Positions 45,025 through 62,958 of a DNA stretch of 64,000 bases are shown here, piece by piece. The notes below the pieces were generated by a model that saw only the letters and a list, made by a program, of their open reading frames with translations, had not been told where the DNA came from and searched no databases. The position numbers were made by a program, and so were the translations under genes. Origin of the DNA: Minisyncoccota bacterium (GTDB taxonomy: Bacteria; Patescibacteriota; Minisyncoccia; JAHIHE01; JAGLIN01); NCBI GenBank assembly GCA_041661265.1, contig JBAZUT010000002.1, positions 140,316 through 204,315 of the forward strand, in the 5' to 3' direction. Position 1 is the stretch's first letter. Every line of letters begins with the position of its first letter.

Positions 45025-47622
45025 TTAATCTTCCGGACAAACAGCTGCGACTGTGCTCAAGGCTCCGGCGTTGCTTACTGTGAGTCTGTGGCAAGCTCCA
45101 TCCGGAGATCTCATTATTAACCCCTTGCCCAATGTGCTGATCGAAACATCCCCGTCTGCCGTTATCAGCATTCTGTCACCATTGACGCCGCCGCTATCTG
45201 TAGTAATAAATCTATACTTATCGCTCGAAGGCCCGGCTACTGCAGGGCTCATGTTAAAGACAACATCGCCACCCGATCCGGGCCAAATTGGATAATCCGC
45301 GGACGTTCTGGCGATCAGAAATTCTCCGGCATCAGTACTGAATCTGATCCTAGTCTTCGCGCCCGAATTATTAGTGTTTTTGATCATGATGCTGCTGTCA
45401 TCCGCTCCGGTTAAATTTGATTCAATTTGCAGCCTGTCAGTTGGGCTTGATGTACCTATGCCCACCTTGCCATTCTCGTGAACTTTGAATATCGAATTAG
45501 TCGCCTGATCCTCTATATTCAAGTAAGCGAAACCCATGGCCGCATCTCTTTTTATATGTAGACCTTCCGTCGCGACAGCGCTTGACATCTTGACATCCAA
45601 AGTCGCATTCGGACGCACACCACTTGTGAAAGATCCTGCTCCGATCCTGCGATACTCGGAATCGATCGTCATTGCCAAAGGTCCGTCCGTAGATCCACCG
45701 ATGCTTTGATTGCCGAAAATCATGAGATTGTTTTTTCCTGCCACATCAATGTGTCTGAAAGCAAAAACGGAATCCACCCCCCCTCCCACGATCACATCAG
45801 CACTGGGCATAGAGAGTCCGGCATAATTCGGCGGTGTTTCAGCGCCTTCCGTCGTTCCGCTGATTTTCAAACTTCCATTGACTTCAAGAGTTGATTTGGG
45901 ATCCATTGTCCCGATGCCGACATTGCCGTTATTTTTTATGGTCATCCGCTCAACAGGCGCATCTGTTCCGTCAAGTGTGGTTGAAAACATCAATCTGCCC
46001 GGCACATCATTGTTCCCGGTCGCGCCATCAATCTGAGCTTGTATTGATGCGCTTGCCCGGCCGCCGGAATTTGGCCATTCGTCGCCGTCATATGCCTTGA
46101 ATCGAATACCTCCAATATAATCTCCATTTTGAACTGTAGCCGGAATTCCCGGGCCCGCTCCTTCTCTTGCCCGATAAATATCATAATCCGGTCCGGACGT
46201 TCCAACTGCACTGTTTATTTCATAATGCGCAACATCTCCTCCGCCGATCGTGAGCTTTTCTTTTGGAGCCGAAGCTGGAAATAAAGTCCCTATACCCACG
46301 CTCCCCGAATTGCTGTTATACATGTCCGTTCCGCTAAGAGTCCACTGTCCGCCTGCACCGCCGCTAATGCAATCCGTCCAAGTCCCATTTTGGTAGCACT
46401 GAAATTTATTAGACGTTGAGTCATAATACATCGTCCCGTTTGAAGGTGCAGCGGGCACAGCGGATGGTCTCATTTTTATAGCACCATTCACATCGAGTTT
46501 CTGGCTCGGATCAGGCGCGCCGATTCCGACATTGCCGAAGTCGGGGTTAAGGATCAAATTAAGACCCGGCCCGCTCAGGGCGCCGCTATTATCAAACTGT
46601 CCAGACTGAATACTGCCGAATGAATCATCGTTCTTTGCTCCCAATGTTAATCCGTATCCGAAAGATCCTACGCCATTGGCTTTATTATTATAGAATGCAG
46701 CCGTGTGCATAGTCGGACCCGTGGCATTTCCATGAACAGAAAGCATCCTGTCGGTTGTGTTTTGCGCAGCACCACCATCTGAAACTTCGAGCTTGGATCC
46801 TGGAGCTAGCGTCCCAATTCCGACTCTGGCGTTTCTTGTGTCTATGACCATGGTATTTGGTGTGCCTACATTCTCCTTGTGATTTCCGAAAATAAACATG
46901 CTGCTGGGCTTGGTAGCGATATCTTCTTGCCTGAATTTGAATATTCCATCAGTCCCGCCTCCGAGAAGCATATCCATATTGGGAATATATATGCCTCCTA
47001 TGCCTTCATAATCGCTTAAGAAACTGACCGAGCCGCTCGTAGTCAATGCACCTGTGGTCTTTATGCCATTAGGATGTATGATATATTTAAAATTTCCATT
47101 CCAATTCGCTTTCTGGTCTATCCTAACTTGAGTAACAGGAGGAACACCTATCAAAGATGTCACCGTACGAACATCATCATAGGGAGTCGCTCCGCCGAAG
47201 TGGAAAATCAATTGACTGACACCCGGGACCATGTTGTTGAAATTGTCGCCTGATATCGTCACGGTGTCCGTATATCCGCCAGTGCTGATTGTTGCCGCTC
47301 CGCCATCCACAGCCGCATCACCGATCACGTCCAGTTTTGAGTCCGGTGTCAGCGTTCCGATCCCCACATTGCCGGCAGCAACGGAAAGCCCGTTCGGCCA
47401 GCCTGCCGTGTTCAAGATGAGCCCTCCTCCCTTGGTCTGTCCGGCATTGCCTACATTAAGCGGAGCATCGCATCCGGGATATCCAGCCGGACAATCGGGA
47501 GGATCGGCGGGAGCGGGAGACCAGGCGATGACCGTATAGCCAAACGCCATAATGCATATGGCAACGCTAAGAAGAACGGAAGCTATTCTTGTTTTTTCAA
47601 AATTTTTTTTCACGATTGGCAT
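45025..47622 (-). CDS. Gly-rich fibre-like surface protein (865 aa) with reiterated N-V-G-I-G-T-x-x-P-x-S-K-L-x-V motifs
   Basis: N-terminal TM/signal. Contains PLNVGNAGQTKGGGLILN...GNVGIGTLTPDSKLDV, then further repeats of (G)NVGIGT..P.SKLEV, and ends in a Cys pair. Paralogous to the 464-aa protein at 52099..53493. Confidence 0.75.
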   Translation of the reverse strand: MPIVKKNFEKTRIASVLLSVAICIMAFGYTVIAWSPAPADPPDCPAGYPGCDAPLNVGNAGQTKGGGLILNTAGWPNGLSVAAGNVGIGTLTPDSKLDVIGDAAVDGGAATISTGGYTDTVTISGDNFNNMVPGVSQLIFHFGGATPYDDVRTVTSLIGVPPVTQVRIDQKANWNGNFKYIIHPNGIKTTGALTTSGSVSFLSDYEGIGGIYIPNMDMLLGGGTDGIFKFRQEDIATKPSSMFIFGNHKENVGTPNTMVIDTRNARVGIGTLAPGSKLEVSDGGAAQNTTDRMLSVHGNATGPTMHTAAFYNNKANGVGSFGYGLTLGAKNDDSFGSIQSGQFDNSGALSGPGLNLILNPDFGNVGIGAPDPSQKLDVNGAIKMRPSAVPAAPSNGTMYYDSTSNKFQCYQNGTWTDCISGGAGGQWTLSGTDMYNSNSGSVGIGTLFPASAPKEKLTIGGGDVAHYEINSAVGTSGPDYDIYRAREGAGPGIPATVQNGDYIGGIRFKAYDGDEWPNSGGRASASIQAQIDGATGNNDVPGRLMFSTTLDGTDAPVERMTIKNNGNVGIGTMDPKSTLEVNGSLKISGTTEGAETPPNYAGLSMPSADVIVGGGVDSVFAFRHIDVAGKNNLMIFGNQSIGGSTDGPLAMTIDSEYRRIGAGSFTSGVRPNATLDVKMSSAVATEGLHIKRDAAMGFAYLNIEDQATNSIFKVHENGKVGIGTSSPTDRLQIESNLTGADDSSIMIKNTNNSGAKTRIRFSTDAGEFLIARTSADYPIWPGSGGDVVFNMSPAVAGPSSDKYRFITTDSGGVNGDRMLITADGDVSISTLGKGLIMRSPDGACHRLTVSNAGALSTVAAVCPED

Positions 47623-47650
47623 AGTGTTTATTTAAAATTATTATAATGGA

Positions 47651-47968
47651 CTATCTATTGGTTCCATAGGAATCAAGTATTTCCTTCGGGATCACTACTT
47701 CATTTTTGGGGTCCGGTGCGACCGCGCCATCAGGACCATATGCCTCCAGCACTTCTTTAGACGGAACGATCTCCGGTTTCTTTTTTAATGATTCATCGTC
47801 AGATGGTCCATAGCTGTCATACACATCCCGCATAGTTCTTTTAGGCTGATCCGGCTGTTCGGGCGTCTCGGGTTTTACGTTCAGCAAAACATAGCATACA
47901 GCAACAATGAACACCAGAAAAACGGCAAACACCGCATAGATCAATTTTTTATCGTATTTAACCTGCAT
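47651..47968 (-). CDS. small single-pass membrane protein (105 aa), paralogue of the gene at 53519..53860
   Basis: TM helix LIYAVFAVFLVFIVAVCYVLL and a Pro/Glu/Lys-rich ectodomain. Shares the motif VIPKEILDSYG / EIPKELIDSVT with its paralogue. Confidence 0.6.
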   Translation of the reverse strand: MQVKYDKKLIYAVFAVFLVFIVAVCYVLLNVKPETPEQPDQPKRTMRDVYDSYGPSDDESLKKKPEIVPSKEVLEAYGPDGAVAPDPKNEVVIPKEILDSYGTNR

Positions 47969-47987
47969 TTTTTTATATTTATAATGA

Positions 47988-50900
47988 CTAAGGGGCCGCC
48001 TCGTTCCATTTTGGCTTATTACTCATGATATTTACGTCTTTTTGCTTGTCCCTGTCATGCGCCCAGCACTCTATCCCGCCGGAGTCTCTCACTCTAAGAT
48101 CAACTCGATAAACATTCGGCGTCGGATATGAGTATGTTTCCGTGTATCCGGGAGGAGGAGTTATCGCCTCGGCATCGGGCGTCACAGGGTTCGTTGCATA
48201 ATCAAAGAACCACTGATATCTGTCGATCGTATATGGCGGATCATCCGACCAGGACAATGAGGGATCAAAAACTATAGGCATGAACAGGAGTATGTTGCCG
48301 GCAGGAGCATATGTGAATTCCGCCCTGGGATATTGATGATCGGGAGAAGGATTCGGACTTCCAAGTTCATCCACACTGTCGGGAAACGGATCTCCGATCA
48401 TAAAATCTCCTTCGTTTATATTATTGTCGCTGTCGTAAACCCTAAGTTTCCAAATATATGTGAATCCTCCGTAATCTATAAAATTCGCGCCGCACAATGC
48501 CACTGAATTTATTTCGGTTCCCAAAAGATTGGTGGCATTATCATTCTTCTTGCCGGGTTTGCATTCAGCGACAAAATTTCCGATGCTATCGTATTTCGTA
48601 AGTTCGATCTCATAGGCCGACTGCATTCCATAGCCGTCTTCGGCATCGTTATACTCCCACCTCAGCGACACCGCTCCGGGCAGATCTTTCTTGCAATAAT
48701 CAATGCCCATCTGGCCGAATATCCATAAAGCCGGTTTATTGTCGCCTATCCTGATCTTTACGCCATCAAAGCTTATCCAGCCTCCGACAAGTCCCGACCA
48801 ACCCCATCCCGAAAGATCGCTTCCCGCCAGCACAACTTTATAGTTTGAAGTGCCGCAGCTGGCATCATTGATGCAATTCAAGGAGATCCATCCGTCCCAC
48901 CCTCCTCTTTCCTCGGGCGGACGAAGTGGTCCTGTACAATTATTTGCAAAAACGCTGCAAGCTCTGGCCCAGCCTTTAAATTCATTTCCGTCCAAGCGTG
49001 CCTGACAATTGCCCCCGTTTGGACATTCGGTCAGAATGAATGGCGGAGTAACAACATCTTTGATATCCGGCCAGTTGAAACTGACCCAGCCGAAATTCTC
49101 TCCCCAGGCATAACCCGAAAGATCATTAGTGCTTGTGCTAATTCTCGCTCCATAAGGGAAAGCGGTTCCCAAAGAAGGACAATTCGCCGGAGCGGCGCCT
49201 CCGTCCTCCAAAGCTCCTTCAAAAGTTCCATCGCCGTCAGTATCGCAATCCTTGCTGCTGAAACTTATCCATCCGATCGTATCACTCCAGCCAAACCCAT
49301 AAAGATTCGAATATTCTGCCGCCGGAATTACTGTCAATTTAAAAGTTTTCTCTTTGTTGGCAAGTCCCGCACTTTGGCCGGTTATTTTTATGATATAATC
49401 GCCTGTCGGAGTGCTCGGATCGATATCTATATCAAACGTGCGGGTGCAGTCCGGCTGGCAAACATTGCCTACCGACCAGCTTATGCCGATCAGAGGCTCG
49501 GAAGGGCTTATACTATAGGAAAGAAGGACGTCTTGCGCCGGCGCCTGGACCAAATTAATAACGGCACCCCTTGTTGCTGACGCTCCCGTCGTCAGAACCA
49601 TGTCCGACATATCCGATATTTCATAGTTGAAAAATGTTCCTATAGTGATCATGCCTGAATAGTCGCTTACTCCGTCGGAAGCCACGCCATAAACATAGTA
49701 ATTTCCGGGAACAATGCCAGCCGTATTCCAGTTACATATTGCCCCTGCGCTCTCCGGAACAGATCCACAGAGTGCGATTGCGCCCACGTAACCATTTGCA
49801 TTATTCATATCGTTATCATAATACAAAGCTGCGGTAGCTATATCATCCGGATCAATTAAAGAATAATTGATCCCAAAAACATCTCCCTGTGCCACTGAAT
49901 CGCCGTTTGGCGATGTTATATTGAGAATGGAGGGAATGTCAGCTGAAATTTCTTCCGCTCCGATACAGACTCCCGGTTCAGGCGAGGCATATTTGCTTCT
50001 GAGATAGTATCTGCTAATTTCACCTGCGGAAAGCGCACGGTCATAGAGGCGAACTTCATCCATCTCGCCATCAAACACCTCCCCCGGGTGCTCAGAGCCG
50101 AACACAGCACTATTTCCTATATAATATTGGGTCGTTCCGGAAGATGAATTATTGAAAAAGAATTTGCTGGCTGCGTTTCCCGCGTCATAATTAACAACAG
50201 CCTGCTTTACGCCATCAAGATAGAACTCATTTCCTGAGCCGGAAACGACATATGCAACAAGATGCCAATTGGTCGGATTAGATACCTGGACATAACCGTC
50301 AAATTCCGCATTACAATCGCCATTAGCGCTTCCCCAAACCTCAAAATAAGTCGTGCCAGCAACAGTAGTCATGGCTATTTCAAACGGATACGTGCAATTT
50401 CCCGAATCCGCTGTAAATATCGAGTCAAAACCAGATGCTCCGGCATTGGCCTTGACCCACGCCATAAAAGTTCCGGAGGTCAGTCCATCAAAGACGTTGT
50501 CTGGCGAAATGGATACATAATCATTTGTTCCGTCAAAGCTGAGTGAATTTCCGGCAGAAAACTGCAGATTACGGCTGTCCCATTGACCTCCATCCGAGGA
50601 AGTCCGGATAGGATTGTCGGGTGCACCGCCCATTGTTCCGCCGTTTCCACTACCCGAACTGTCCGAAACTGTCGCACCTGCCGCTTCATCCATATGCCAA
50701 AGTCCCACAAGTCCGGACTCCGCGTAGTCTTTTGTGAAAGTGTTGTCATAACTGCCGACGCTTGATGCAGCCGCATTTCCATAGTACATATATATCGTAT
50801 CGGTTGCAAAAGCAGGTACGTTTGGAACCTTTACCCAAAAATCGGCTGTTGAAGAATCAGTTTTGCTTTCAAGCCAGTAATAGATCGGGGTCGATCCATC

Positions 50901-51482
50901 CGAAGATGTAAATCTGATATCGTCAAAATCCGATTGCATATCTGCATCATATGCAATTGTCACTTTTATCTGATGATCAACAAGATTCGATCCTGAATTC
51001 TCGGAAATGATTATCGGTTTCCTCTTTGTCCAATTAGAATCAAGCCATGATCCTCCTCCGGTCTTAAGACAACCCAGGCCAACCGGAATAGCACTTGCCT
51101 CATCAGACTGTGGACCTTCGCCAATCAAATTAACGGCTGACACTTTGTAAAAATATGCAGTGCCATTGGCAAGACCAGAGTCAGTGCAGATTGTTGTATT
51201 TCCAAGACTTGAACAGCCTCCCAAAGCAAGCAATGAATATGAACCATTAGTCGGGCTGCTACGATAAACTCTGTAATTTGTGATCGCAGAACCGCCATTG
51301 TCCGGCGCGGTCCAAGATAAAGATATTTGAGTATTGCCGGAAGTAGCATTCAAACCGGCTACTTGAGCGGGAGCAGATGCGGCACCTGCATAATAGACAT
51401 ATTCAAAACACAATAAAACAGCAGCAACAATAATTATTGCCGGAATATATTTTTTATTTTTTAATGCCAAACCTACTGGCAT
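47988..51482 (-). CDS. giant secreted surface protein (1164 aa): FN3 domain, LamG domain, C-terminal GW-rich repeats; C-terminal tail ...SNKPKWNEAAP
   Basis: Signal/TM IPAIIIVAAVLLCF. The FN3 block (ISLSWTAPDNGGSAITNYRVYRSSPTNGSYSLL...YFYKVSAVNLIGEGPQSDEASAIPV) is ~75% identical to an FN3 in the 2848-aa ORF. LamG block LSFDGTNDYVSIS...MDEVRLYDRALSAGEI. The C-terminal GWISF/GWVSF repeat region is homologous to the C-terminus of the 2848-aa ORF. Confidence 0.85.
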   Translation of the reverse strand: MPVGLALKNKKYIPAIIIVAAVLLCFEYVYYAGAASAPAQVAGLNATSGNTQISLSWTAPDNGGSAITNYRVYRSSPTNGSYSLLALGGCSSLGNTTICTDSGLANGTAYFYKVSAVNLIGEGPQSDEASAIPVGLGCLKTGGGSWLDSNWTKRKPIIISENSGSNLVDHQIKVTIAYDADMQSDFDDIRFTSSDGSTPIYYWLESKTDSSTADFWVKVPNVPAFATDTIYMYYGNAAASSVGSYDNTFTKDYAESGLVGLWHMDEAAGATVSDSSGSGNGGTMGGAPDNPIRTSSDGGQWDSRNLQFSAGNSLSFDGTNDYVSISPDNVFDGLTSGTFMAWVKANAGASGFDSIFTADSGNCTYPFEIAMTTVAGTTYFEVWGSANGDCNAEFDGYVQVSNPTNWHLVAYVVSGSGNEFYLDGVKQAVVNYDAGNAASKFFFNNSSSGTTQYYIGNSAVFGSEHPGEVFDGEMDEVRLYDRALSAGEISRYYLRSKYASPEPGVCIGAEEISADIPSILNITSPNGDSVAQGDVFGINYSLIDPDDIATAALYYDNDMNNANGYVGAIALCGSVPESAGAICNWNTAGIVPGNYYVYGVASDGVSDYSGMITIGTFFNYEISDMSDMVLTTGASATRGAVINLVQAPAQDVLLSYSISPSEPLIGISWSVGNVCQPDCTRTFDIDIDPSTPTGDYIIKITGQSAGLANKEKTFKLTVIPAAEYSNLYGFGWSDTIGWISFSSKDCDTDGDGTFEGALEDGGAAPANCPSLGTAFPYGARISTSTNDLSGYAWGENFGWVSFNWPDIKDVVTPPFILTECPNGGNCQARLDGNEFKGWARACSVFANNCTGPLRPPEERGGWDGWISLNCINDASCGTSNYKVVLAGSDLSGWGWSGLVGGWISFDGVKIRIGDNKPALWIFGQMGIDYCKKDLPGAVSLRWEYNDAEDGYGMQSAYEIELTKYDSIGNFVAECKPGKKNDNATNLLGTEINSVALCGANFIDYGGFTYIWKLRVYDSDNNINEGDFMIGDPFPDSVDELGSPNPSPDHQYPRAEFTYAPAGNILLFMPIVFDPSLSWSDDPPYTIDRYQWFFDYATNPVTPDAEAITPPPGYTETYSYPTPNVYRVDLRVRDSGGIECWAHDRDKQKDVNIMSNKPKWNEAAP

Positions 51483-51564: not shown

Positions 51565-51858
51565 TTATTTTGTCGCGCCATCAGCCGGGGCCGGATCCTG
51601 CTTCAGACAGCTGACACTTATCAGCTGGACCTGCTCTTTGTCATTGTAAATGGAGAATGGATCGCATTTTTCGTTTTTAGCCTGGGAGATCGCCGCATTT
51701 ATCATGTCGGTCTTGCCCTGCTGGTATCCCGATTGCAACGCAGCGCTCAACTGCTCTTTTTTGAAATCATCCCAAATATCTATAGCGACATATACAACAG
51801 AAAAAAGAATCCAAAAACTGACTGCGACCAAACTGACGGCTTTTTTGTCTATCTTCAT
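51565..51858 (-). CDS. small single-pass membrane protein (97 aa)
   Basis: TM helix AVSLVAVSFWILFSVVYVAI. Confidence 0.45.
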   Translation of the reverse strand: MKIDKKAVSLVAVSFWILFSVVYVAIDIWDDFKKEQLSAALQSGYQQGKTDMINAAISQAKNEKCDPFSIYNDKEQVQLISVSCLKQDPAPADGATK

Positions 51859-53860: not shown

Positions 53861-53883
53861 GTTTTTTTTTAATATATTAATTT

Positions 53884-56800
53884 CTATGGCGCAGCTTCGT
53901 TCCATTTCGGCCTCTCGCTCATGACATCTATGGGCTGCAGAGTGAATCTTTCGCTCGCATAGCAACTATATACCTGAGCGGAAGAATCGGTTACTTTCAG
54001 GTCCACCGCAAAGGTTCCCTGATCTGCGTAATTGTGGACTACATTATAACCCAAAGCCGGTCCGGGGTCGGAGAAGGTGTCAATGTCATTCGGCGTCCCA
54101 TCTCCAAAGATCCATTCCATTTCTTTTATATAATATCCGGCCGCAACCGAAGTCGGCTCCGCAAGCGGATTTCCGGAAACATCATTAAAAGGATCGAGTG
54201 TCACGTCCATGAATTGCAGGATGTCCGTATCCGGAGAGTATGAAAAATTAGCGACAGGATAAGAATGGTCCGGGGTCGCAATAGGACTATTCGGATCCGA
54301 ACTGTTATAAGGGAACTTCACCCCCGGAGTCACTGCGCTTGCATTATCCTCACTGTCATAAACAGTAACATTCCATGAATATGTAAAATTTCCATAATCT
54401 ATAAACCCGGGACAGAAGCCGTTGATATCATTACCCGTCAAAGTGTTTATGAAATCAAATTGTTTTCCCGTCGAACACACGGCCAGGTCGCTCCTCTCAA
54501 CGTCAACCCGATATGCACTCTGAGACGTTCCTGCCGCGTCATCTTCCACGTCAGTGAAGACCCACGAGATCCTTTCCGCCCACGGATCCTGCCTGCAAGG
54601 ATCGATCGAGGTCGCGTTTGCATTCGTAACGGACGGGTTAAACGTTCCGACGCTGACGCAATAATCAGCTCCGTTGCAAAAACTGATCCAGCCTGTCACG
54701 TCGCCTCCCCACGCCCAGCCGTTGAAATTTCCGCCACTCAGGATAACTTTGTAATTGCCCGAATTAACCGGAATCGTCAGATTATCAATGCCGCCGCAAG
54801 CCACGTCAAGAAACTCATTATTATCCGTATCGCAATCATCGGCCAATATGATGCCATCGCCTCCGCAGCTTACATCAAGTCTCCCGTTATTATCCGTATC
54901 GCAATTATTTATATTTCCTTTCAAATTGATCCACCCGTCCCAGTCACCGGTTTCCCAAGGATTTTTAAGCGCGCCCGAACAGTCTGCACTAAACACCGAA
55001 CAAGCCCTCGCCCAGCCGATAAAATCACCTGCGCCATCAAGACTTGCCTGGCAGGCTCCCGACGGACAGCCGGAAATATCGCCAAAATCAGGATCTCCCG
55101 AAACTCCATAACCGAAAGTTATCCACCCGATATTCTCACTCCATGCATAACCCGACAGAATTCCGCCTGAGTCCAGATTTACTCCATAAGATTTGACTGC
55201 GCCATTGGTCTGGCAGCCTGGAGGCGCGGGAGTTGAACCGACAGGAACCCCTTCGCTGTTTCCTTCATATATCCCATCCTTGTCAACATCGCAATTCTTG
55301 CTGTTGAAGCTTATCCAGCCTGCAGTCGAGCTCCACGCAAAACCCATAACATTTGAATTTTGAGCTTCGCACCCGGGCTTTGAAGGATCCGTCGTAATAT
55401 TCGGTCCGTCCGTTACCGCGCTCGAAAGAACATCCGTCTCATCCCAAACAGTGAGATCCCAATACAAAGTTTTTCCATATGCAGCCGCTCCAAAATCCGC
55501 ATCATAGGTTGTGCTCGATGATAATACAATTCCCGTATTCAAAATATTATTCGTCTTTCCTGCATCATCATACACCCTGATCCGGTATGATTTTTGCGCA
55601 AATTGCGGAGTCGTATTGGATTGATATGTCCAGGAAAGATCATATCTGTTGTCGCTTGTGCAATTATTTATCGGACCCGCAACACTAAGACCGGACACCG
55701 TTGGCGGGACACATTGAAAAACGGTTCCCTGCTGACCATTGTCGCCCCCATTGATTCCCGTACCGCCATTAACATTAAAGCTGCCTCCGTAAGTATTAGA
55801 ATTAGAACAATTCACAATCCTTCCGCCACCGCCGCCGCCATTGCCATTTATATTTCCTCCATTGCCGCCATTTGAAGTGATAAGACCGGAAGCCAAACCG
55901 GTTAGATTATTTGAAATCAAGAAAATCGATCCTCCGGCGCCTCCCCCTCTCGGGCCAACCGCACTTAAACCGGAAGCGTCAATTATTCCGCTGTTGGTAA
56001 GACTATTTGTGATCATTATTTTGATCATTCCGCCGCCAGTGCCACTGGCAGGAGCTCCGGCACCCGCGAAAGCCGAGCCGCCATCGCCTCCGATTCCGCC
56101 ATATCCGCCTCCTCTATTGTTCTGGAAACTACCCGTTTGTCCTCCCGAACCCAGATCATTCGGATTAGTGAGAGATCCATACGTATTGCCTCCGGTGTTT
56201 CCCGAACCGGGTCCTTCGTCGGCAGAATAACCCTTTCCAATCGCATCAATTTTGCCTCCGGCAATTATAGTAAGATTATTAAGATTCAAATCGATATAAT
56301 TAACCTTGGCATTTGTGTTCGCAATATGACTCAGCGTTCCAGCGATGGTTAAATTCCTTAAATTTGGAAAATTCGTCGTAGTTGGCGAGAAAGTATTCAC
56401 GGTAAAGTTGCCGTTAAGCGTCATATCCGTGAAACCCAGGCTTATTGCATTGAGATTCCCGGTATTGGTTCCAATACCGTTTATGTTTATCACATCCGCG
56501 CCATTAACCGTAAACAGACTGTTATTATCCAGCACGCCGACAGATGTAAGATTCGTGACGCCATTTGCGGTAAAAGTTCCATTATTGGTTATACCCCAGA
56601 AAGACCATGCCCCCGTATTTAAAGCTGTGATATTTACACCCGGATTGATCTTGAAATGCCCTCCATTTGTGATCGTGAGATAATCAATGTTCATATTGGC
56701 ACCGACAGGAGTCATTTCCCCGGCCACACCGTTATTTATCAGACTTAAATATCCGTTTGGATTTGCACCATCGTCTTTGTCTTTTGAATAAATAGTTCCC

Positions 56801-59800
56801 GCACCTCCATATACAGCCGAACCGGATGGCGCCCCGCCATAGGCTATCGCCGATCCTAAATAAGATTTTGCATTGTAGCGATATGAGATCCTTCCGCCGC
56901 CGCCGCCGCCATTATTATTTGTATTGCCGCCATTCCCGCCGCTTGCGATCATTGAGCCCGTAGCTGCTCCTCCAAAATTATTCGTATCGACATATATTGT
57001 TCCGCCCGATCCTCCCGCCCTCGTTCCCGTAGCATTGCTTCCCGAGACATTGATCGTACCATTAAGCATGAGAGTGTTCCCGATCGTCAATTTAACCAAT
57101 CCGCCGCCCGTGCCGCCGCCCGCCGGCGCTCCGGCTCCGGCCCAAGCCGAACCTCCATCGCCTCCGATACCTCCGAATCCGCCTCCCCTATTATTCTGGA
57201 AACTTCCTGATTTACCGCCGGAACCCAAGTCATTCGGATCGGTAATCGATCCATATGCATTGCCTCCGGTGTTTCCTGAACCCGCACCCTGATCTGCCGC
57301 GTAACCTTTGCCAGCCGCATCGATCTTTCCTCCTGCATTAACTGTCAGATTATCAAGAGTCAGATCAATATAATTGACGGGAGTATTATTATTTGCAAGA
57401 TGACCCAAAGTTCCGTTCACGGTCATATTTACAAGTGAAGCAAAACTAGTTGTTGTCGGCGAGAAAGTATTGACGATAAGCGTACCGTCAATTGTAAGAT
57501 TGGGAACATTATTAGCTATTAAATTCCCATTATTAGTGACAGTTGCGGTATTGTTTATCGTTAAGTTGTTTATATTCCGAACATCGAAATAGCTGTTATT
57601 ATTAAGAACGCCGGTTACAGTCAGACTCGCCACACCCAATGCCGAGAAATTCCCGTTATTGGTTATGCTCGAGAAAGACCATACGCCGGTGTTGTAAGCG
57701 TCCAAATTAACGCCGGAATTTATGCTGAGATGGGCGCCATTCGCAACCGTTAGAATATCAATCAGCATGCTGTTCTCGAGTGGCGTGATCTCTCCGGAAA
57801 ATCCATTATTATCGAGAGTCAGATAACCGTTCGGGTTCAGGGCGTCTGATTTATTCTTTGAATACACCGTGCCGGCTCCGCCATATGTAGCCGCGCCTGT
57901 TCGCGCTCCGCCAAAAGCAACGGCAGTTCCTGTATATGTTTTTGAATTAAAGTAGTATGCGATCCTTCCGCCTCCGCCTCCGCCATTGTCATTGGATGCG
58001 CCCGCTGACCCGCCATTTGCGATCATCGAACCCGTTGCGGCGCCTGCCAGATTGTTCACATCGACATATATCGATCCGCCCGATCCACCGGCTCTTGTTC
58101 CGGTAGAATTAACTGCCGAAGCATTTATCGAGCCATCCAAGGTCAGAATGTTGCTGATAGTCAATTTTACCGAACCGCCGCCGGCCCCACCGGTCGCAGG
58201 CGCTCCGCAGCATCCCCCGGTACCCGCCCCTCCTTTTCCGCCATAGCCCGCGCCTCTTCTTCCGGCAAATGCCCCTGATTCTCCGCCGGAACCCATTTCA
58301 TTGGGATTAGTGATAGATCCATAAGTATTACCCCCTAAATTCCCCGAACCGGCGCCCTGGTCTGCAGCATATCCCCTGCCGACTGCGTTTAGTACGCCCG
58401 TAGCGGCAATATTTCCGCTGGTCGCAATTATTTCAACCTTGCCATAATTCGTTCCGTCATAAGCTTTGACATAAACCGTCCTGCCGGCGGGTATGCTGAA
58501 ATTATTGATATTGCAATGCGTTCCCGCTATGTCTATTATTCCGGCAGTCGCATTCAAATCCCAAGCATCTCCGTCCGTCGGAGTCCAATTTGCCCCACCA
58601 TGATCGATCCCGGCGCATGGAGCGACGGGAACAGCGCTCGCCTCATCCGATTGAGGACCTTCGCCTATGATATTCGAAGCTGAAACTTTATAGTAATAAG
58701 TAGTGCCATTAACCAGTCCCGTATCCGTGCATGTGAGCACATTTCCAAGGCTTGAACAGCCACCTGCTATTAATAAAGAATAAGAACCATTAGTGGGACT
58801 ACTTCGATACACTTTGTAATTGGTAATAGGTGAACCGCCATCAGCCGGAGCGGTCCAAGACAAAACTACCTGAGCATTCCCAGCTGCAGCCGCTAAGCCA
58901 GTTACTTTATCGGGAGATGATATAACGCAACGGATAGAATTCGCGTCTACTTTAGACCAACTATCGGGGTCTCCTCCTTTTGGAACACCAGAATAAAGAT
59001 ATCTTAGAAATGCATCGCTTGCATTAATCTGAGTCGACGACCAAAGATGCGTATCAGCACCAATATCCCAAAAATTATTAAAAGAATAGCTACCACTCCA
59101 AAGCGCCTCGAATCCCGCTTGACCGCCCTGGTCAAGTTCTGCTTCAGCATCTGAATATCCATAGAAACCTATCACATAATTTCTTAAGATATCGAACTCT
59201 GATTGCTGAGGAATATGCCATCCGGCGGGACAGAGCCCCTGAACAGGCTGAGTTATGAATGCGGAACAGTCGCCTGTCCTGCACGAATTAGGCACCCGTA
59301 AAGCTTCCGTCCACTGATATAAACCGCCATACATATTGCAATTATTATTTCCGGTTGCGATCTGTCCGGCATTTCCATCTGTCATATAGCCATAGCAATA
59401 TTTTTCAACAATTCCATTATCGGTCTGATCTTGATAGGTTACGTTATCATCCAGCTTTCGGCTGATCATCTTTCCCAAAGTAAGGTTTTCTTTTGTCCAG
59501 CATTGATTTCCTATCTTAACGGTGTTATAGATATTGCCTTCGACATCCGCAGCTGAAGGAAACGGCGGACAAGCATTGGTAAGGGCAGCAAGGATCGTCG
59601 TCGGAGCCGATAACATTGAAGCACCGTTTACGGTTCCATCATTGGGAATGACTTCAACCGTGATCACATTTCCGGCGACATAATTCGCGGAAGTTAAAGT
59701 TGAAGCCGTTGCTCCGGCAATATCCACACCTCCCTTTTTCCATTGATAAGCATAGGTTATCGGGTCCCCATCGGCGTCCGTGGCGGAAACAAGCGCCGCC

Positions 59801-62340
59801 AAATTCGGCGTGCTGGCATATGCAGGACTCGGGGTTATGGTTACCAAAGTCATGACAGGAGATGCGTTCGACGAACCTGAACATGCTGCTAAAGGATTGG
59901 ATTCATTGCAATCCTCTCCCACAAAATCGCGAGTGCCATTGTTTATTCCAAGCTGATTCCAGCACGATCCCCCTGTTGACTTGCATGAACAATTTGAAAG
60001 CGTCGCACCGGTCACTCTCAGGGTCCCGCCCGCACCGGTTGCGCTGGTTCCCGGAAGATCAAAAAATCCCGATCCCATCCAGTCTATGAGACCTCCGTTC
60101 TTCGCCTCAAGAACAGTTGAAGAGCAGTTGGGAGCATAATAAGTGTCAAGTCCGGTCATATCGATCGTCCCGCCATTTTGTCCGCAAACTCCGAAATTTT
60201 CGCACGAATTGGCATGTATCCCGCCCTTGAAATAACCCGAACCAGTTATACTGACATTTCCCGCTTTTCTTGAGCTTGATGTTGAGATCAGACTGCCGGA
60301 ACCCTCAACGCCGATGCTTCCGCTGCCGGTCAGATTCACAACGCCTCCGTTCACGCCGGCAATATTCGTGTTCCCGGTTTTGATCAACGACGATCCGCTT
60401 AATACTGTGTCATTTGAAAAAGTTATATTGACATTGCCGCCTGTTTTTGCCGGCCCGCCTGCCGCATTGCTCCCCTCGGTATAGATCTTCAAATTCGATC
60501 CTCCCGGAAAAATCGAGGCCCCACCCGCCCCGGTAACATCCAAATTTCCGCCGTTTCCAGTCAAAGTGTCCGGAACACTGAGGTCAACAATAAGCCCTCC
60601 GTTCGGATAGAAGATATCTCCGCCGGTCATATTGATATTTCTGGCGTTCGTGCTTGATGTTGCTTTTCCGTCTATCAGAACTTCAGTGTTCGCTCCGACA
60701 AACTTGTTTCTGAAATCGATATCCGTTCCCGTCAGGTCAAGATCGCTCGACAGGATTATTCTCAGAGGATTTGGCGTGTTCGCATTGACATCAATACTGA
60801 CGCCTGTATGCGAACCTCCAAGATAGCATGGATTTTGGGTTATCGTGCAATTTCCAGAAACTGGACAGCACTGAGACGCCGTGACCATAAATGAATATTT
60901 TCCCACTGCGGGACTCAAGCTGATATTTCCGGCTCCATCAGTCGCTTCCGATTGATATTCGATCACATCGCCCGGAGTAAGCGGACCGTTTATCGCAAGT
61001 TGATGCAAACCTCCCGTAGCCCAGGTGCTCACAGGCTGAAGGACTCCGTTTATCCAATATCTTATCTTGTGATCAACGATTATGCCTGAATCATCCGAGG
61101 CTGTTGAATAGATCGTCACTTTTTCAGTGGGTTGATCGATATCCGCATAATTGACAACTCCCCCATCAGCAACCTGAACACCCAAAGAATCCGGCCTCCA
61201 TGCAGCTGTCGTCAAAGTTGGATTTATCGTGTCGGGAATCCCGCTGATTATACTGAATTTGCTCGTGCCTTCAGAAGAAACATAAGAATATCCGCTTCTG
61301 AAAGAAAGACCGTAAGGCATATCTAGATTGGCAGAATCCTGTAAGAAATCCGCTATTACTGGATTATTAGCGTTAGAAATATTAACTAACGTTAAAGTAT
61401 CGGAATCATAAGCGGAAACATATGCCATGAAACCGAAAACCTTAACCCCTTTCGCACCATTCAGTCGATTATTGTCTTTAACAGAACCGACTATTACAGG
61501 ATTCGCAGGATCAGAAATGTTCACAATGGTCAATCTGTCTCCTTCAGGTGTCACAGGTCCCGTCCCACGTGATGTCACATAAGCGTAAGGACTGGCAATA
61601 TCAACTCCATATGCTGTATTCAGCTGCTCATCATCCCTCACGGATCCCACATAACTCATTGCAAGGGGATTGGAAATATCTATAATAGTCAATCGATTAC
61701 CTTCGGTCGGACAAGCACCATTTCCTCCTCTCGCCGTAACATATGCAAGACTGCCGACAATTTTCAAATCCCACGCTCCGCATAATTCATTATTTCTCTG
61801 AATTGATGATGCAACGGAAGGGTTTGCCGGATTTGAAATGTTCACTGCCGTTAATCGATTTTGATATCTCGCAGTTACATACGCATAATTTCCCGAAACA
61901 AAAACGCCCGTTGGAGTATCAAGATTTACTCCATCGGCTACAAAACCCGCAATAAATGGCACTGCAGGATTTGTAATATCTACAACACTTAATGTGTCGG
62001 CTGCGCGCGATACAACATATGCGTAATTTCCATATACATAAACACTGTATGCCTCGTTAAGCGTTACCCCATCACAGACCGATCCGACATAACTGGGAGC
62101 TGTCACAGTTGTAATGTCGAGAATTGTAAGACAATCAACAGAAGGTGCGGTCACATAAGCATAATTACCGGAAATTGTCGAATTCCATGCGCCGCTCATA
62201 TTCGGATGAGTGTATGAACCGACTATTCCGAGCGCTGCATCCGCCTTGCCGGCAGATAAACTTGAAATTAAAAATAAAACCAAAAAACACAAAAGGCTCG
62301 TGATCGTTTTTCTCACTTTTGAAATGTTTTTTAATTTCAT
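53884..62340 (-). CDS. giant secreted surface protein (~2818 aa): signal peptide, LVIVD-repeat beta-propeller, Fibrobacter-succinogenes-type paralogous domain, FN3, 3 x ~355-aa Gly/Asn-rich tandem repeats, GW-rich C-terminal region; C-terminal tail ...SERPKWNEAAP
   Basis: Start taken at the internal MKLKNISKVRKTITSLLCFLVLFLISSLSAGKADA; the listed ORF runs to 62430. LVIVD repeats (GNYAYVTA...LTIIDISNPANP). FISUMP-like block (GNQCWTKENL...GGLYQWTEAL...GLCPAGWHIPQQSEFDIL). An FN3 shared with the 1164-aa ORF. Three GKGYAADQGAGSGNTGGN... repeat units. Confidence 0.85.
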   Translation of the reverse strand: MKLKNISKVRKTITSLLCFLVLFLISSLSAGKADAALGIVGSYTHPNMSGAWNSTISGNYAYVTAPSVDCLTILDITTVTAPSYVGSVCDGVTLNEAYSVYVYGNYAYVVSRAADTLSVVDITNPAVPFIAGFVADGVNLDTPTGVFVSGNYAYVTARYQNRLTAVNISNPANPSVASSIQRNNELCGAWDLKIVGSLAYVTARGGNGACPTEGNRLTIIDISNPLAMSYVGSVRDDEQLNTAYGVDIASPYAYVTSRGTGPVTPEGDRLTIVNISDPANPVIVGSVKDNNRLNGAKGVKVFGFMAYVSAYDSDTLTLVNISNANNPVIADFLQDSANLDMPYGLSFRSGYSYVSSEGTSKFSIISGIPDTINPTLTTAAWRPDSLGVQVADGGVVNYADIDQPTEKVTIYSTASDDSGIIVDHKIRYWINGVLQPVSTWATGGLHQLAINGPLTPGDVIEYQSEATDGAGNISLSPAVGKYSFMVTASQCCPVSGNCTITQNPCYLGGSHTGVSIDVNANTPNPLRIILSSDLDLTGTDIDFRNKFVGANTEVLIDGKATSSTNARNINMTGGDIFYPNGGLIVDLSVPDTLTGNGGNLDVTGAGGASIFPGGSNLKIYTEGSNAAGGPAKTGGNVNITFSNDTVLSGSSLIKTGNTNIAGVNGGVVNLTGSGSIGVEGSGSLISTSSSRKAGNVSITGSGYFKGGIHANSCENFGVCGQNGGTIDMTGLDTYYAPNCSSTVLEAKNGGLIDWMGSGFFDLPGTSATGAGGTLRVTGATLSNCSCKSTGGSCWNQLGINNGTRDFVGEDCNESNPLAACSGSSNASPVMTLVTITPSPAYASTPNLAALVSATDADGDPITYAYQWKKGGVDIAGATASTLTSANYVAGNVITVEVIPNDGTVNGASMLSAPTTILAALTNACPPFPSAADVEGNIYNTVKIGNQCWTKENLTLGKMISRKLDDNVTYQDQTDNGIVEKYCYGYMTDGNAGQIATGNNNCNMYGGLYQWTEALRVPNSCRTGDCSAFITQPVQGLCPAGWHIPQQSEFDILRNYVIGFYGYSDAEAELDQGGQAGFEALWSGSYSFNNFWDIGADTHLWSSTQINASDAFLRYLYSGVPKGGDPDSWSKVDANSIRCVISSPDKVTGLAAAAGNAQVVLSWTAPADGGSPITNYKVYRSSPTNGSYSLLIAGGCSSLGNVLTCTDTGLVNGTTYYYKVSASNIIGEGPQSDEASAVPVAPCAGIDHGGANWTPTDGDAWDLNATAGIIDIAGTHCNINNFSIPAGRTVYVKAYDGTNYGKVEIIATSGNIAATGVLNAVGRGYAADQGAGSGNLGGNTYGSITNPNEMGSGGESGAFAGRRGAGYGGKGGAGTGGCCGAPATGGAGGGSVKLTISNILTLDGSINASAVNSTGTRAGGSGGSIYVDVNNLAGAATGSMIANGGSAGASNDNGGGGGGRIAYYFNSKTYTGTAVAFGGARTGAATYGGAGTVYSKNKSDALNPNGYLTLDNNGFSGEITPLENSMLIDILTVANGAHLSINSGVNLDAYNTGVWSFSSITNNGNFSALGVASLTVTGVLNNNSYFDVRNINNLTINNTATVTNNGNLIANNVPNLTIDGTLIVNTFSPTTTSFASLVNMTVNGTLGHLANNNTPVNYIDLTLDNLTVNAGGKIDAAGKGYAADQGAGSGNTGGNAYGSITDPNDLGSGGKSGSFQNNRGGGFGGIGGDGGSAWAGAGAPAGGGTGGGLVKLTIGNTLMLNGTINVSGSNATGTRAGGSGGTIYVDTNNFGGAATGSMIASGGNGGNTNNNGGGGGGRISYRYNAKSYLGSAIAYGGAPSGSAVYGGAGTIYSKDKDDGANPNGYLSLINNGVAGEMTPVGANMNIDYLTITNGGHFKINPGVNITALNTGAWSFWGITNNGTFTANGVTNLTSVGVLDNNSLFTVNGADVININGIGTNTGNLNAISLGFTDMTLNGNFTVNTFSPTTTNFPNLRNLTIAGTLSHIANTNAKVNYIDLNLNNLTIIAGGKIDAIGKGYSADEGPGSGNTGGNTYGSLTNPNDLGSGGQTGSFQNNRGGGYGGIGGDGGSAFAGAGAPASGTGGGMIKIMITNSLTNSGIIDASGLSAVGPRGGGAGGSIFLISNNLTGLASGLITSNGGNGGNINGNGGGGGGRIVNCSNSNTYGGSFNVNGGTGINGGDNGQQGTVFQCVPPTVSGLSVAGPINNCTSDNRYDLSWTYQSNTTPQFAQKSYRIRVYDDAGKTNNILNTGIVLSSSTTYDADFGAAAYGKTLYWDLTVWDETDVLSSAVTDGPNITTDPSKPGCEAQNSNVMGFAWSSTAGWISFNSKNCDVDKDGIYEGNSEGVPVGSTPAPPGCQTNGAVKSYGVNLDSGGILSGYAWSENIGWITFGYGVSGDPDFGDISGCPSGACQASLDGAGDFIGWARACSVFSADCSGALKNPWETGDWDGWINLKGNINNCDTDNNGRLDVSCGGDGIILADDCDTDNNEFLDVACGGIDNLTIPVNSGNYKVILSGGNFNGWAWGGDVTGWISFCNGADYCVSVGTFNPSVTNANATSIDPCRQDPWAERISWVFTDVEDDAAGTSQSAYRVDVERSDLAVCSTGKQFDFINTLTGNDINGFCPGFIDYGNFTYSWNVTVYDSEDNASAVTPGVKFPYNSSDPNSPIATPDHSYPVANFSYSPDTDILQFMDVTLDPFNDVSGNPLAEPTSVAAGYYIKEMEWIFGDGTPNDIDTFSDPGPALGYNVVHNYADQGTFAVDLKVTDSSAQVYSCYASERFTLQPIDVMSERPKWNEAAP
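55700..58400 (-). repeat. intragenic tandem repeat, 3 copies of ~1065 bp (~355 aa), inside the 2818-aa giant gene
   Basis: Nucleotide-level similarity between 56040..56300, 57090..57340 and 58150..58400. The protein units each begin G(K/R)GY(A/S)ADQGAGSGN and contain GGGFGGIGGDGGSA and GGGGGGRI(S/A/V) blocks. Boundaries are approximate. Confidence 0.7.
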
Positions 62341-62936: not shown

Positions 62937-62958
62937 TTTTATCTCTTTCTATATTGAA

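What the first reader, a model, noticed from the sequence alone, without database searches (positions are those of the whole stretch)
45025..62340. Duplicated three-gene module: giant adhesin, small single-pass TM protein, Gly-rich N-V-G-I-G-T fibre protein
Module A runs 62340->52099 and module B runs 51482->45025. Each consists of a giant protein (2818 or 1164 aa), then a ~105-113-aa membrane protein, then a fibre protein (464 or 865 aa). The components are pairwise paralogous. The giants share an FN3 at ~75% identity and a homologous GW-rich C-terminus. The small TM proteins share IPKE(I/L)(L/I)DS. The fibres share WxxPxAPAP...PLN(V/I)G...GNVGIGTxxPxSxL. A conserved gene triad of this kind implies a functional unit, for example adhesin plus dedicated membrane partner plus fibre, rather than random tandem surface genes.
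Basis: seen in the sequence. Interest (0 to 1): 0.7.

Follow-up and report, generated by a model that had tools for sequence, protein, structure and literature searches.

The report
Pilus-linked adhesin and fibre gene cassette
An uncultured ultra-small bacterium (Paceibacterota) carries, inside its type IV pilus gene cluster, two copies of a cassette of giant surface protein, small membrane protein and phage-tail-like fibre; the same parts recur together across this bacterial group and probably form its host-attachment gear.

Summary
Two tandem cassettes on the minus strand each encode a giant protein, a small single-pass membrane protein and a fibre, and the paralogy is not a composition artefact. 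The window comes from a Candidatus Paceibacterota genome, and the cassettes lie inside a type IV pilus (T4P) cluster.

The fibres are relatives of the Bdellovibrio MAT (mosaic adhesive trimer) fibres and of phage tail fibres. They carry an N-terminal head that I found named only in Patescibacteria. The giants are variable payloads on a conserved ~450-aa C-terminal module: an 8-stranded beta-barrel with no Pfam model, then Ig, then PKD. This module ends in the tag P-x-W-x-E-x-x-P. A third, otherwise unrelated giant in the window carries the same tag.

In 80 related loci the fibre gene sits just upstream of the barrel-protein gene, and this gene often directly precedes a four-gene set of minor pilins. 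The small proteins belong to a family with a TM helix plus about three L-x-S-L-T-A-P repeats, found almost always just upstream of fibre genes.

Best model (inferred, not shown): the giants are PilY1-like pilus-tip adhesins docked by their C-terminal tag, and the fibres and small proteins are co-operating partners. This is a new variant of known kinds.

The parts
53884..62340 (-). Giant A (2818 aa). Signal peptide, LVIVD beta-propeller repeats, FISUMP domain, FN3, three 358-aa Gly-rich tandem repeats, then the conserved C-module.
   Evidence: ORF and Pfam/NCBIfam hits. Public gene call of 2818 aa. 1074-nt internal repeats.
54661..55365 (-). GW beta-barrel domain of giant A (hairpins of the form GxAWSxxxGWIxF)
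   Evidence: Aligned to giant B. Family alignments. No Pfam hit even at E 10.
53887..53910 (-). C-terminal tag of giant A: PKWNEAAP-COOH
58585..58920 (-). FN3 domain of giant A, paralogous to the FN3 of giant B
   Evidence: 68% aa identity, 73-74% nt identity, Pfam fn3
53519..53860 (-). Small A (113 aa). N-in single TM helix plus three degenerate repeats (EEMMKTVNAP, KELIDSVTAP, QELIDSTTSAQ).
   Evidence: Family HMM E 4e-8. Family members lie upstream of fibre genes.
52099..53493 (-). Fibre A (464 aa). Signal peptide, N-head (WTEPTAPAPGNN..PLNIG..GQVKLGGL), and a MAT-like beta-helix with NVGIGT capping loops.
   Evidence: PDB hits 8ond/8oml/8on4. PHROG tail fibre. 100% identical to NCBI WC788_02480 from Candidatus Paceibacterota.
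53236..53394 (-). N-terminal head of fibre A
   Evidence: 862 cluster representatives carry it, always right after a signal peptide
51565..51858 (-). 97-aa TM protein between the cassettes (tm97)
   Evidence: Called as a gene in the public record. Relatives lie directly upstream of GW genes in L032, L067 and L073.
47988..51482 (-). Giant B (1164 aa). Signal peptide, FN3, DUF2341, Laminin_G_3, then the conserved C-module.
48765..49319 (-). GW beta-barrel domain of giant B
47991..48014 (-). C-terminal tag of giant B: PKWNEAAP-COOH
51045..51377 (-). FN3 domain of giant B
47651..47968 (-). Small B (105 aa). TM helix plus three degenerate repeats (MRDVYDSYGP, KEVLEAYGP, KEILDSYGT).
   Evidence: Family HMM E 2e-3 and the same syntenic position
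45025..47622 (-). Fibre B (865 aa). Signal peptide, N-head, several MAT-like beta-helix units, and a Cys-containing tip.
   Evidence: PDB hits 8oml/8ol4/8ond/8on4. PHROG 9942 at E 2.5e-30.
43706..44965 (-). About 420-aa protein with a TM segment at each end, between fibre B and PilC. No relatives found.
42442..43650 (-). PilC platform protein (T2SSF)
   Evidence: Pfam E 1e-57
40255..42431 (-). Four minor pilins in H-I-J-K order. 41850-42431 is H-like, 41294-41845 I-like, 40726-41307 J-like. 40255-40692 is K-like and has no Glu5 (KG|QVALF).
   Evidence: N_methyl hits. Weak ComGD/GspH/PilV hits. The same four-gene set follows GW genes in 8 loci.
31742..39694 (-). Giant C (2650 aa; FN3-like repeats, two Laminin_G_3 domains). 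Unrelated to A and B except for the tag KWDETTP-COOH.
62364..63929 (-). PilO/GspM-like protein (63303-63929) and two small TM proteins (62959-63291, 62364-62936) upstream of giant A
   Evidence: Relatives in the closest locus L001 lie next to PilN and PilC

Best explanation
The region is part of a type IV pilus (T4P) cluster of at least 32 kb in a Paceibacterota (Patescibacteria/CPR) chromosome. It encodes that lineage's attachment toolkit in duplicate.

Shown here:
- The fibres are non-S74 relatives of Bdellovibrio MAT trimeric beta-helix fibres and of phage tail fibres. They are secreted through a Sec signal peptide that ends at a conserved A|WTEP junction.
- The giants are secreted mosaics. 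Their conserved end is a C-terminal module of 8-stranded barrel, Ig and PKD, ending in the tag P-x-W-x-E-x-x-P.
- The small proteins are N-in single-pass membrane proteins that expose about three L-x-S-L-T-A-P-type repeats.

Inferred:
- The tag of each giant, including the unrelated giant C, docks it onto the pilus tip. It would do so by adding a beta-strand to the small K-like minor pilin, as the last ~10 residues of PilC/PilY1 do. The three giants would then be alternative tip adhesins for one pilus.
- The fibres are host-recognition fibres that work with this assembly.
- The small membrane protein is the fibre's dedicated partner, either an anchor or an assembly factor. Its three repeats may match the three chains of a trimer.
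For: T4P context:
- PilC, three N_methyl pilins, a K-like pilin lacking Glu5 and a PilO-like protein flank the cassettes.

Linkage in 80 related loci:
- There are 91 GW genes. A fibre gene sits at -1 in 27%, at -2 in 13% and at +1 in 14%, against a 6% background.
- The H-I-J-K pilin set directly follows the GW gene in L002, L008, L012, L017, L020, L031, L037 and L041.
- T4P genes lie within 10 kb in 26 of 80 loci, many of which are truncated contigs.

Tag:
- W, E and P are at least 90% conserved in a 68-sequence alignment.
- The tag lies at the very end of 76 of 120 database relatives.
- Among 1243 genes in the loci, 27 carry it and 26 of those are GW genes.
- All three window giants, and no other window ORF, end in KW[ND]E[AT][AT]P.
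- Giant C shares nothing else with A and B.
- Paralogs within a locus keep tags more alike than the domain before them (window: 0.80 versus 0.36) and more alike than pairs between loci (mean 0.39).
- In the AF2 monomer the tag is an unstructured tail.

Precedent:
- In PilC/PilY1, the C-terminal ~10 residues add a strand in trans to PilK. The same is predicted for the ~1200-aa MshQ next to its minor pilins (PMC13533445).
- Non-pilin proteins are proposed as tip adhesins in Saccharibacteria T4P loci (PMC11623550).

Fibres:
- PDB sequence hits to Bd2133, Bd1334 and others, down to E 1e-10.
- NVGIGTxxPxxKL is the published MAT capping-loop motif.
- PHROG tail fibre hits.
- Database proteins P0176 and P0220 combine a prepilin N-terminus with capping loops and Peptidase_S74. 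P0168 and P0179 combine a prepilin N-terminus with capping loops. Such fibres can therefore be built directly onto pilins.

Small proteins:
- All 9 small ORFs with at least 2 strict repeats, out of 530 small ORFs, lie upstream of a fibre gene (8) or of a GW gene followed by a fibre gene (1).
Against: - No interaction was computed or measured, because no multimer prediction was available.
- 54 of 80 GW loci show no T4P gene within the stored flanks.
- The GW gene usually lies upstream of the H-like pilin gene, not downstream of the K-like one as pilY1 does.
- The conserved module is not a beta-propeller.
- The tag ends in Pro and carries charged residues, so its beta-strand character is not evident.
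- A minority of relatives continue after the tag with an ~18-aa hydrophobic or amphipathic tail. This fits a membrane-proximal sorting signal better than a buried terminal strand.
- Small B is only a marginal member of the small-protein family (E 2e-3).
- The match between three repeats and a trimer is numerology until it is modelled.
Confidence: 0.45

Rival explanations
1. This is a cell-envelope adhesin island that does not depend on the pilus. The giants and fibres are retained on the cell body, and the tag is a wall or membrane sorting or anchoring signal, or a ligand for a PDZ-like receptor. The small TM proteins act as anchors. Proximity to T4P genes would only reflect clustering of surface genes in a small genome.
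For: - Some relatives have the tag followed by a hydrophobic tail and basic residues, like tripartite sorting signals.
- Most loci show no T4P genes in the flanks.
- The GW gene is often followed by housekeeping genes such as RNase Y.
- CPR genomes are known to carry many giant surface proteins (PMC8080830).
Against: - Most family members, and all three window giants, end at the tag with no membrane segment.
- The GW gene directly precedes the H-I-J-K pilin set in at least 8 loci from different lineages.
- Pilin-fibre fusion proteins exist.
- No sortase or exosortase-like gene was seen in the window cluster or in the Pfam-scanned neighbours.
Confidence: 0.3
2. The pilus-like machine works as a secretion piston, in the manner of a type II secretion system. 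The giants and fibres are its exported substrates rather than parts mounted on the filament.
For: The H-I-J-K minor pilins resemble pseudopilins GspH-K and ComGD-G. The substrates are large secreted proteins encoded in the same cluster.
Against: - Both protein types have ordinary Sec signal peptides.
- Patescibacteria are generally regarded as monoderm (my background knowledge, not tested here), so there would be no outer membrane to cross.
- A conserved extreme C-terminal tag and a conserved fibre N-head suggest retention, not release.
Confidence: 0.1
3. This is a remnant of a prophage or tailocin whose tail-fibre genes were duplicated.
For: The fibres hit phage tail fibre PHROGs at E 1e-18 to 2.5e-30.
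Against: - Giant B, both small proteins, the ~420-aa protein and the K-like pilin gave no PHROG hit.
- No phage structural, replication or integrase gene was found.
- The neighbours are pilus and housekeeping genes.
- The same linkage recurs in hundreds of Patescibacteria genomes.
Confidence: 0.03
4. The apparent paralogy is an artefact of Gly/Thr-rich composition.
For: The fibres and giant A are Gly-rich, and the small proteins align poorly pairwise.
Against: BLASTP with compositional adjustment gives E 4e-80, 1e-39 and 1e-18. External-family HMMs and PDB hits agree.
Confidence: 0.01

Closest known systems
MAT (mosaic adhesive trimer) fibres of Bdellovibrio bacteriovorus (Caulton et al. 2024, PMC10769870) and phage tail fibres or tailspikes
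   Same: - The beta-helix repeat is homologous to solved MAT tips (8ond, 8oml, 8ol4, 8on4).
- Both share the NVGIGTxxPxxKL capping loops.
- Both have a signal peptide, one conserved end and one variable end.
- Several paralogs occur per genome.
- Both occur in organisms that live on other bacteria.
   Different: - Neither window fibre has an S74 chaperone domain.
- The fibres are much shorter. The median length of proteins carrying the head is 236 aa, against ~1000 aa for MAT.
- They carry a ~50-aa WTEPTxxPPGGN..PLNVG..GQxKxGGL head. The few head-bearing proteins that carry a source name, and nearly all loci holding them, are labelled Patescibacteria. MAT-like hits from Kordia, Flavobacteriales and Elusimicrobiota lack it.
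- They are encoded in T4P clusters next to GW-module genes and small repeat proteins.
- Patescibacteria are not among the lineages listed in that paper's Table S3.
[quoted passage not shown] 2026, PMC13533445)
   Same: - Large non-pilin proteins with Sec signals.
- Encoded beside the H-I-J-K minor pilin genes.
- The N-terminal part is variable.
- The extreme C-terminal ~8-10 residues are conserved and shared by redundant paralogs in one genome (compare PilC1 and PilC2).
   Different: - There is no beta-propeller. The conserved module is an 8-stranded barrel, Ig and PKD.
- There is no detectable sequence similarity.
- The gene usually lies upstream of the H-like pilin gene.
- The K-like pilin is very small (114-153 aa in most loci, 200 aa in one).
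- Strand addition was not tested here.
PilX1/PilX2 of Nanosynbacter lyticus TM7x (Saccharibacteria T4P; PMC11623550)
   Same: Large proteins in Patescibacteria pilin loci that lack a PilD-type signal. They are proposed to be pilus-tip lectin-like adhesins needed for host binding.
   Different: Their domains differ (a jelly-roll and an RCC1-type propeller). No relation to the GW module was tested. No fibre or small repeat protein is described there.
Modular pilins such as Streptococcus sanguinis PilB/PilC (PMC8179133)
   Same: They show the principle of grafting an adhesive module onto a pilus subunit. The database fusions P0176 and P0220 (prepilin N-terminus plus S74 fibre) are of this kind.
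   Different: The window fibres and giants have no prepilin motif, so any attachment would have to be non-covalent.

Membership tests
MAT fibre superfamily | Repeated capping-loop motif (N/L)VGIG(T/A)xxPxxKL | tested here: met
   The fibre A/B alignment shows several NVGIGT loops in each, and further copies are readable in the translations. The motif list is in the paper's Supplementary Fig. 18.
MAT fibre superfamily | Beta-helix fibre unit homologous to solved MAT structures | tested here: met
   Fibre A versus 8ond (Bd2133) E 1.1e-10 and 8oml E 4e-8. Fibre B versus 8oml E 1.1e-8 and 8ol4 E 2.1e-7.
MAT fibre superfamily | Conserved ~130-aa beta-rich N-terminal domain right after the signal peptide | tested here: inconclusive
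   A conserved N-head follows the signal peptide. It could not be compared with the Bdellovibrio domain. The PDB chains matched are C-terminal tip fragments, and the search meant to retrieve full-length Bd1334 returned nothing.
MAT fibre superfamily | C-terminal S74 chaperone (13 of 21 Bdellovibrio members) or an alternative tip (NS74 members) | tested here: met
   Neither fibre contains PF13884, so they are of the NS74 type, which the family definition allows.
MAT fibre superfamily | Trimeric assembly and surface display | not testable with these tools
   No multimer prediction or experiment was available.
PilC/PilY1-type pilus tip adhesin | Gene lies within or next to the core minor-pilin (H-I-J-K) operon | tested here: met
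   In the window, giants B and C flank the pilin set. In 8 loci the GW gene directly precedes the four pilin genes.
PilC/PilY1-type pilus tip adhesin | Conserved C-terminal beta-propeller domain | tested here: not met
   The C-module model is an 8-stranded barrel, Ig and PKD. The LVIVD propeller of giant A is N-terminal and is not conserved in the family.
PilC/PilY1-type pilus tip adhesin | Conserved extreme C-terminal ~10-residue peptide | tested here: met
PilC/PilY1-type pilus tip adhesin | The C-terminal peptide completes the beta-sheet of the PilK-like minor pilin | not testable with these tools
   This needs AF3 or AF-multimer, or biochemistry.
Sortase / exosortase-type C-terminal sorting signals | Motif followed by a TM helix and a basic cluster | tested here: not met
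   The window giants end at the tag, as do 76 of 120 relatives. Only a minority have a hydrophobic tail after it.
Type IV pilins / pseudopilins | Prepilin cleavage and methylation motif G|F-x-x-x-E with an N-terminal hydrophobic helix | tested here: not met
   The giants, fibres and small proteins gave no N_methyl hit. The fibres have a Sec-type signal ending in V-x-A|W.
Known Trp-rich wall-binding repeats (Listeria GW module, CW_binding_1) | Match to the Pfam models, or the SH3-like or hairpin-solenoid fold | tested here: not met
   No Pfam hit at E up to 10. The predicted fold is a closed 8-stranded barrel.

The most novel reading that the evidence does not exclude
Paceibacterota and their relatives arm the tip of a type IV pilus with exchangeable, phage-tail-like trimeric fibres. 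In this reading the GW barrel-Ig-PKD protein is an adaptor. Its C-terminal tag completes the K-like minor pilin, and its barrel, or the three-repeat small membrane protein, holds the conserved N-head of a MAT-like fibre trimer. This would also name the kind of surface element that anchors MAT fibres, a question left open for Bdellovibrio.
Probability: 0.2. Interest if true: 0.85.

Novelty: new variant of a known kind. Interest (0 to 1): 0.62.

Why it matters
All cultivated Patescibacteria live attached to other microbes (as stated in PMC11623550). How members outside the Saccharibacteria find and hold a host is largely unknown. This locus points to three widespread, unnamed protein families:
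- the GW barrel module, with more than 1300 relatives;
- the fibre N-head, with 862 cluster representatives;
- the three-repeat small membrane protein.

All three travel together and with pilus genes. If the C-terminal tag works like the PilY1 terminal strand, it gives a simple sequence rule for finding pilus-tip adhesins in these genomes. It would also extend a mechanism proposed as ancestral for type IV filaments to this large, mostly uncultured group. The link between MAT-like fibres and pilus genes also gives a concrete, testable lead on what anchors MAT fibres. The Bdellovibrio study left that question open and itself pointed to type IV pili.

Tried and rejected
- Low-complexity artefact: rejected by the alignments.
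- Prophage origin: rejected, because only the fibres hit PHROGs and the neighbours are pilus and housekeeping genes.
- A dedicated signal peptidase between the fibre and GW genes: found in one locus only (L012, Peptidase_S26). It is not general and is absent from the window.
- The conserved 509-aa gene after many GW genes is RNase Y, and the ~690-aa gene after the pilin sets is DNA ligase. These are operon borders, not components.
- The TM proteins at position -1 of GW genes do not form one family.
- Promoter and terminator scan: counts equal the shuffled expectation. Only one promoter-like site (51961-51934) lies in the 240-nt gap after fibre A.
- The search meant to retrieve Bdellovibrio Bd1334 for an N-domain comparison found nothing.
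- The genomic context of the pilin-fibre fusion P0176 was uninformative.
- Giant C has no homology to A or B beyond the tag.
- Literature searches found no description of this cassette, the GW module or the tag.
Full report
**Observation**

All genes of the region lie on the minus strand.
- Cassette A: giant A 53884-62340 (2818 aa), small A 53519-53860 (113 aa), fibre A 52099-53493 (464 aa).
- Cassette B: giant B 47988-51482 (1164 aa), small B 47651-47968 (105 aa), fibre B 45025-47622 (865 aa).

A public assembly carrying the identical fibre A calls the same genes. The giants share a C-terminal ~500 aa at 37% identity (E 4e-80) and an FN3 domain at 68% identity. The fibres share the N-terminal ~120 aa (41%) and a ~245-aa core (31%, E 1e-18).

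The small proteins align only weakly with each other (E 0.017). An HMM built from ten members in other genomes finds small A (E 4e-8) and small B (E 2e-3), and finds no other window ORF.

At the DNA level the copies are 73-75% identical. The duplicated segments include the junction between giant stop codon and small-gene start. The duplication is therefore old, real and spanned neighbouring genes. A 97-aa TM gene (51565-51858) lies between the cassettes.

**Context**

Fibre A is 100% identical to NCBI protein WC788_02480 of a Candidatus Paceibacterota MAG. Downstream of cassette B lie these genes:
- a ~420-aa protein with a TM segment at each end;
- PilC (T2SSF, E 1e-57);
- three prepilin-type minor pilins;
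- a 145-aa pilin-like protein without Glu5 (KG|QVALF);
- a 166-aa TM protein;
- a third giant, giant C (2650 aa).

Upstream of giant A are a PilO/GspM-like protein and two small TM proteins. The rest of the window is housekeeping (pheST, gyrB, prfA, ftsX, tRNAs). The cassettes therefore sit inside a chromosomal type IV pilus cluster of at least 32 kb.

**The giants**

All three giants, and no other ORF of the window, end in KW[ND]E[AT][AT]P-COOH. Giant C shares nothing else with A and B.

I scanned one genome per species with the shared C-terminal region. More than 447 loci encoded relatives, and 80 were kept, nearly all labelled Patescibacteria. The usual family member is only ~420 aa: a signal or TM segment followed by this module. 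Many end in (L)P-x-W-(K/R/N)-E-(V/I)-x-P with 0-3 further residues.

In the protein database there are 1341 relatives at E<1e-5, named at most 'PKD domain-containing protein'. W, E and P of the tag are at least 90% conserved.

AlphaFold2 models the module with pLDDT 84.7. Its parts are:
- The tag itself is an unstructured tail.

Among 1243 genes in the loci, 27 carry the tag and 26 of those are GW genes. Paralogs within one locus keep their tags more alike than the preceding domain (window: 0.80 versus 0.36). They are also more alike than pairs from different loci (mean 0.39; 3% reach 0.8). A minority of relatives continue after the tag with an ~18-aa hydrophobic or amphipathic tail.

**The fibres**

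Both fibres hit solved Bdellovibrio MAT fibre tips by sequence: 8ond (Bd2133) at E 1e-10, and also 8oml, 8ol4 and 8on4. They also hit phage tail fibre PHROGs.

The shared core is the trimeric beta-helix unit described for these structures. Neither fibre has a Peptidase_S74 domain.

Ahead of the first capping loop lies a ~50-aa head, A|WTEPTxxPPGGNxxxPLNVGxxGQxKxGGLxLN. A full HMMER search finds it in 862 cluster representatives. It always lies at residues ~27-80, directly after a Sec signal peptide with a V-x-A|W junction. The proteins carrying it have a median length of 236 aa. The one named member among the ten looked up is from Candidatus Niyogibacteria. MAT-like hits from other phyla lack the head.

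The MAT paper states that the conserved N-terminal domain must bind an unidentified surface element, and it mentions type IV pili as a possibility. Its list of lineages does not include Patescibacteria. Four database relatives start with a prepilin motif. Two of them also carry Peptidase_S74, so they are pilin-fibre fusions.

**The small proteins**

These form a family: basic N-terminus, one TM helix, then usually three repeats such as EEILQSLTAP. Of 530 small ORFs in the 80 loci, nine have at least two strict repeats. Eight of these lie directly upstream of a fibre gene, and one lies upstream of a GW gene followed by a fibre gene. The window copies are divergent but also have three repeats each.

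**Synteny**

Local HMM labelling of the 80 loci gives 91 GW genes. The share of neighbouring genes that are fibre genes is:

| Position relative to GW gene | Share that are fibre genes |
|---|---|
| -1 | 27% |
| -2 | 13% |
| -3 | 13% |
| +1 | 14% |
| +3 and +4 | 3% |
| Background (all genes) | 6% |

The recurrent order is small TM, fibre(s), sometimes another TM protein, the GW protein, then four minor pilins, then housekeeping genes (RNase Y or DNA ligase). In eight loci the GW gene directly precedes the H-like, I-like, J-like and K-like pilin genes. The fourth is small (114-153 aa in most, 200 aa in L041) and lacks Glu5.

The triad is therefore a real, conserved association. The ancestral reading frame of the module is small, fibre, GW protein. 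The module is part of the pilus system.

**Mechanism**

Shown here: the homologies, the signal peptides, the conserved ends, the linkage and the pilus context.

Inferred: the roles. A 2026 study shows that the last ~10 residues of PilC/PilY1 add the final beta-strand to the PilK-family minor pilin. This licenses assembly and holds the adhesin at the tip. The study predicts the same for the ~1200-aa MshQ encoded beside its minor pilins. Non-pilin tip adhesins are also proposed for Saccharibacteria pili.

By analogy, I propose that the tag docks the giants, including giant C, onto the small K-like pilin. The giants would then be alternative tip adhesins with different payloads:
- giant A: LVIVD propeller, FISUMP, Gly-rich repeats;
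- giant B: DUF2341 and LamG;
- giant C: FN3 arrays and LamG.

The fibres would be host-recognition fibres that co-operate with this assembly, and the three-repeat small protein would be their anchor or assembly partner. I put this composite at 0.45. The main rival, at 0.3, is a pilus-independent envelope adhesin island in which the tag is a sorting or anchoring signal. The tailed variants of the tag favour that rival.

**Comparison and novelty**

The fibres meet the tested MAT criteria: capping loops, a homologous beta-helix and the NS74 tip type. Their N-terminal domain could not be compared with the Bdellovibrio one.

The giants work like PilY1 in position and in having a terminal tag. They fail the propeller criterion, so they are analogues and not members of that family.

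I found no description of the GW module, the tag, the fibre head, the three-repeat protein or their linkage. I rate this a new variant of known kinds, of moderate to high interest, because it yields directly testable predictions about host attachment in Patescibacteria and about the anchoring of MAT fibres.

Noticed in passing
window 31742-39694 (tag at 31745-31768): A third giant (2650 aa; FN3-like arrays and two Laminin_G_3 domains) lies just downstream of the minor pilins. It ends in KWDETTP, the same terminal tag as giants A and B, but has no other similarity to them.
   Followed up: yes
window 55790-58380: Giant A contains three tandem repeats of 1074 nt (358 aa), 68-75% identical at the DNA level. 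They are Gly-rich (GGGGGGRI, GKGYAADQGAGSGN) and have no Pfam assignment.
   Followed up: partly
proteins P0176, P0220, P0168, P0179 (database hits of fibre A): These proteins have a prepilin N_methyl N-terminus followed by capping-loop fibre repeats. Two of them also have a Peptidase_S74 domain. They appear to be pilin-tail-fibre fusions. P0158 and P0166 begin with a hydrophobic N-terminus that I judged, by eye only, to resemble an archaeal-type pilin signal.
   Followed up: partly
homologs P0034, P0043, P0047, P0077, P0094; loci L003, L004, L022, L035, L068: In some GW-family members the tag is followed by an ~18-aa hydrophobic or amphipathic tail (for example PEWREIAPIGWLKKLFASLFSFFRA). Others end in a shorter phi-x-E-F/I-COOH. 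What this variation means is unexplained.
   Followed up: partly
L012:9277-9873: A type I signal peptidase (Peptidase_S26, E 3e-16) is encoded between the fibre gene and the GW gene. This was seen in this one locus only.
   Followed up: yes
window 51565-51858; L032, L067, L073: A 97-aa TM protein lies between the cassettes. Its relatives sit directly upstream of GW genes in three other loci. Its function is unknown.
   Followed up: partly
window 43706-44965: A ~420-aa protein with a TM segment at each end lies between fibre B and PilC. It has no relatives in the 80 loci and no family hit.
   Followed up: partly
window 40255-40692 and the fourth pilin gene in L002, L008, L012, L017, L020, L031, L037, L041: The K-position minor pilin of these Patescibacteria lacks Glu5. 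It is small (114-153 aa in most of these loci, 200 aa in L041) compared with GspK, which I recall as roughly 330 aa.
   Followed up: partly
window 30732-31349: Three tRNA genes (Met, Met, Asp) lie on the plus strand. They are the only plus-strand genes noted, and they mark the downstream border of the pilus/adhesin cluster. GC skew is negative across the whole window.
   Followed up: no
L001 (DAOWDU010000032.1), the closest related locus: This locus has two copies of the PilO-like plus 110-aa TM gene pair. One copy is next to PilC. The other is followed by the 190-aa TM gene and the start of a large protein, as in the window.
   Followed up: partly
window 47988-51482 (giant B residues 259-498): The LamG region gives a weak hit to NCBIfam 'TafC family fimbrial protein' (30.8 bits, far below the cutoff of 410).
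   Followed up: no
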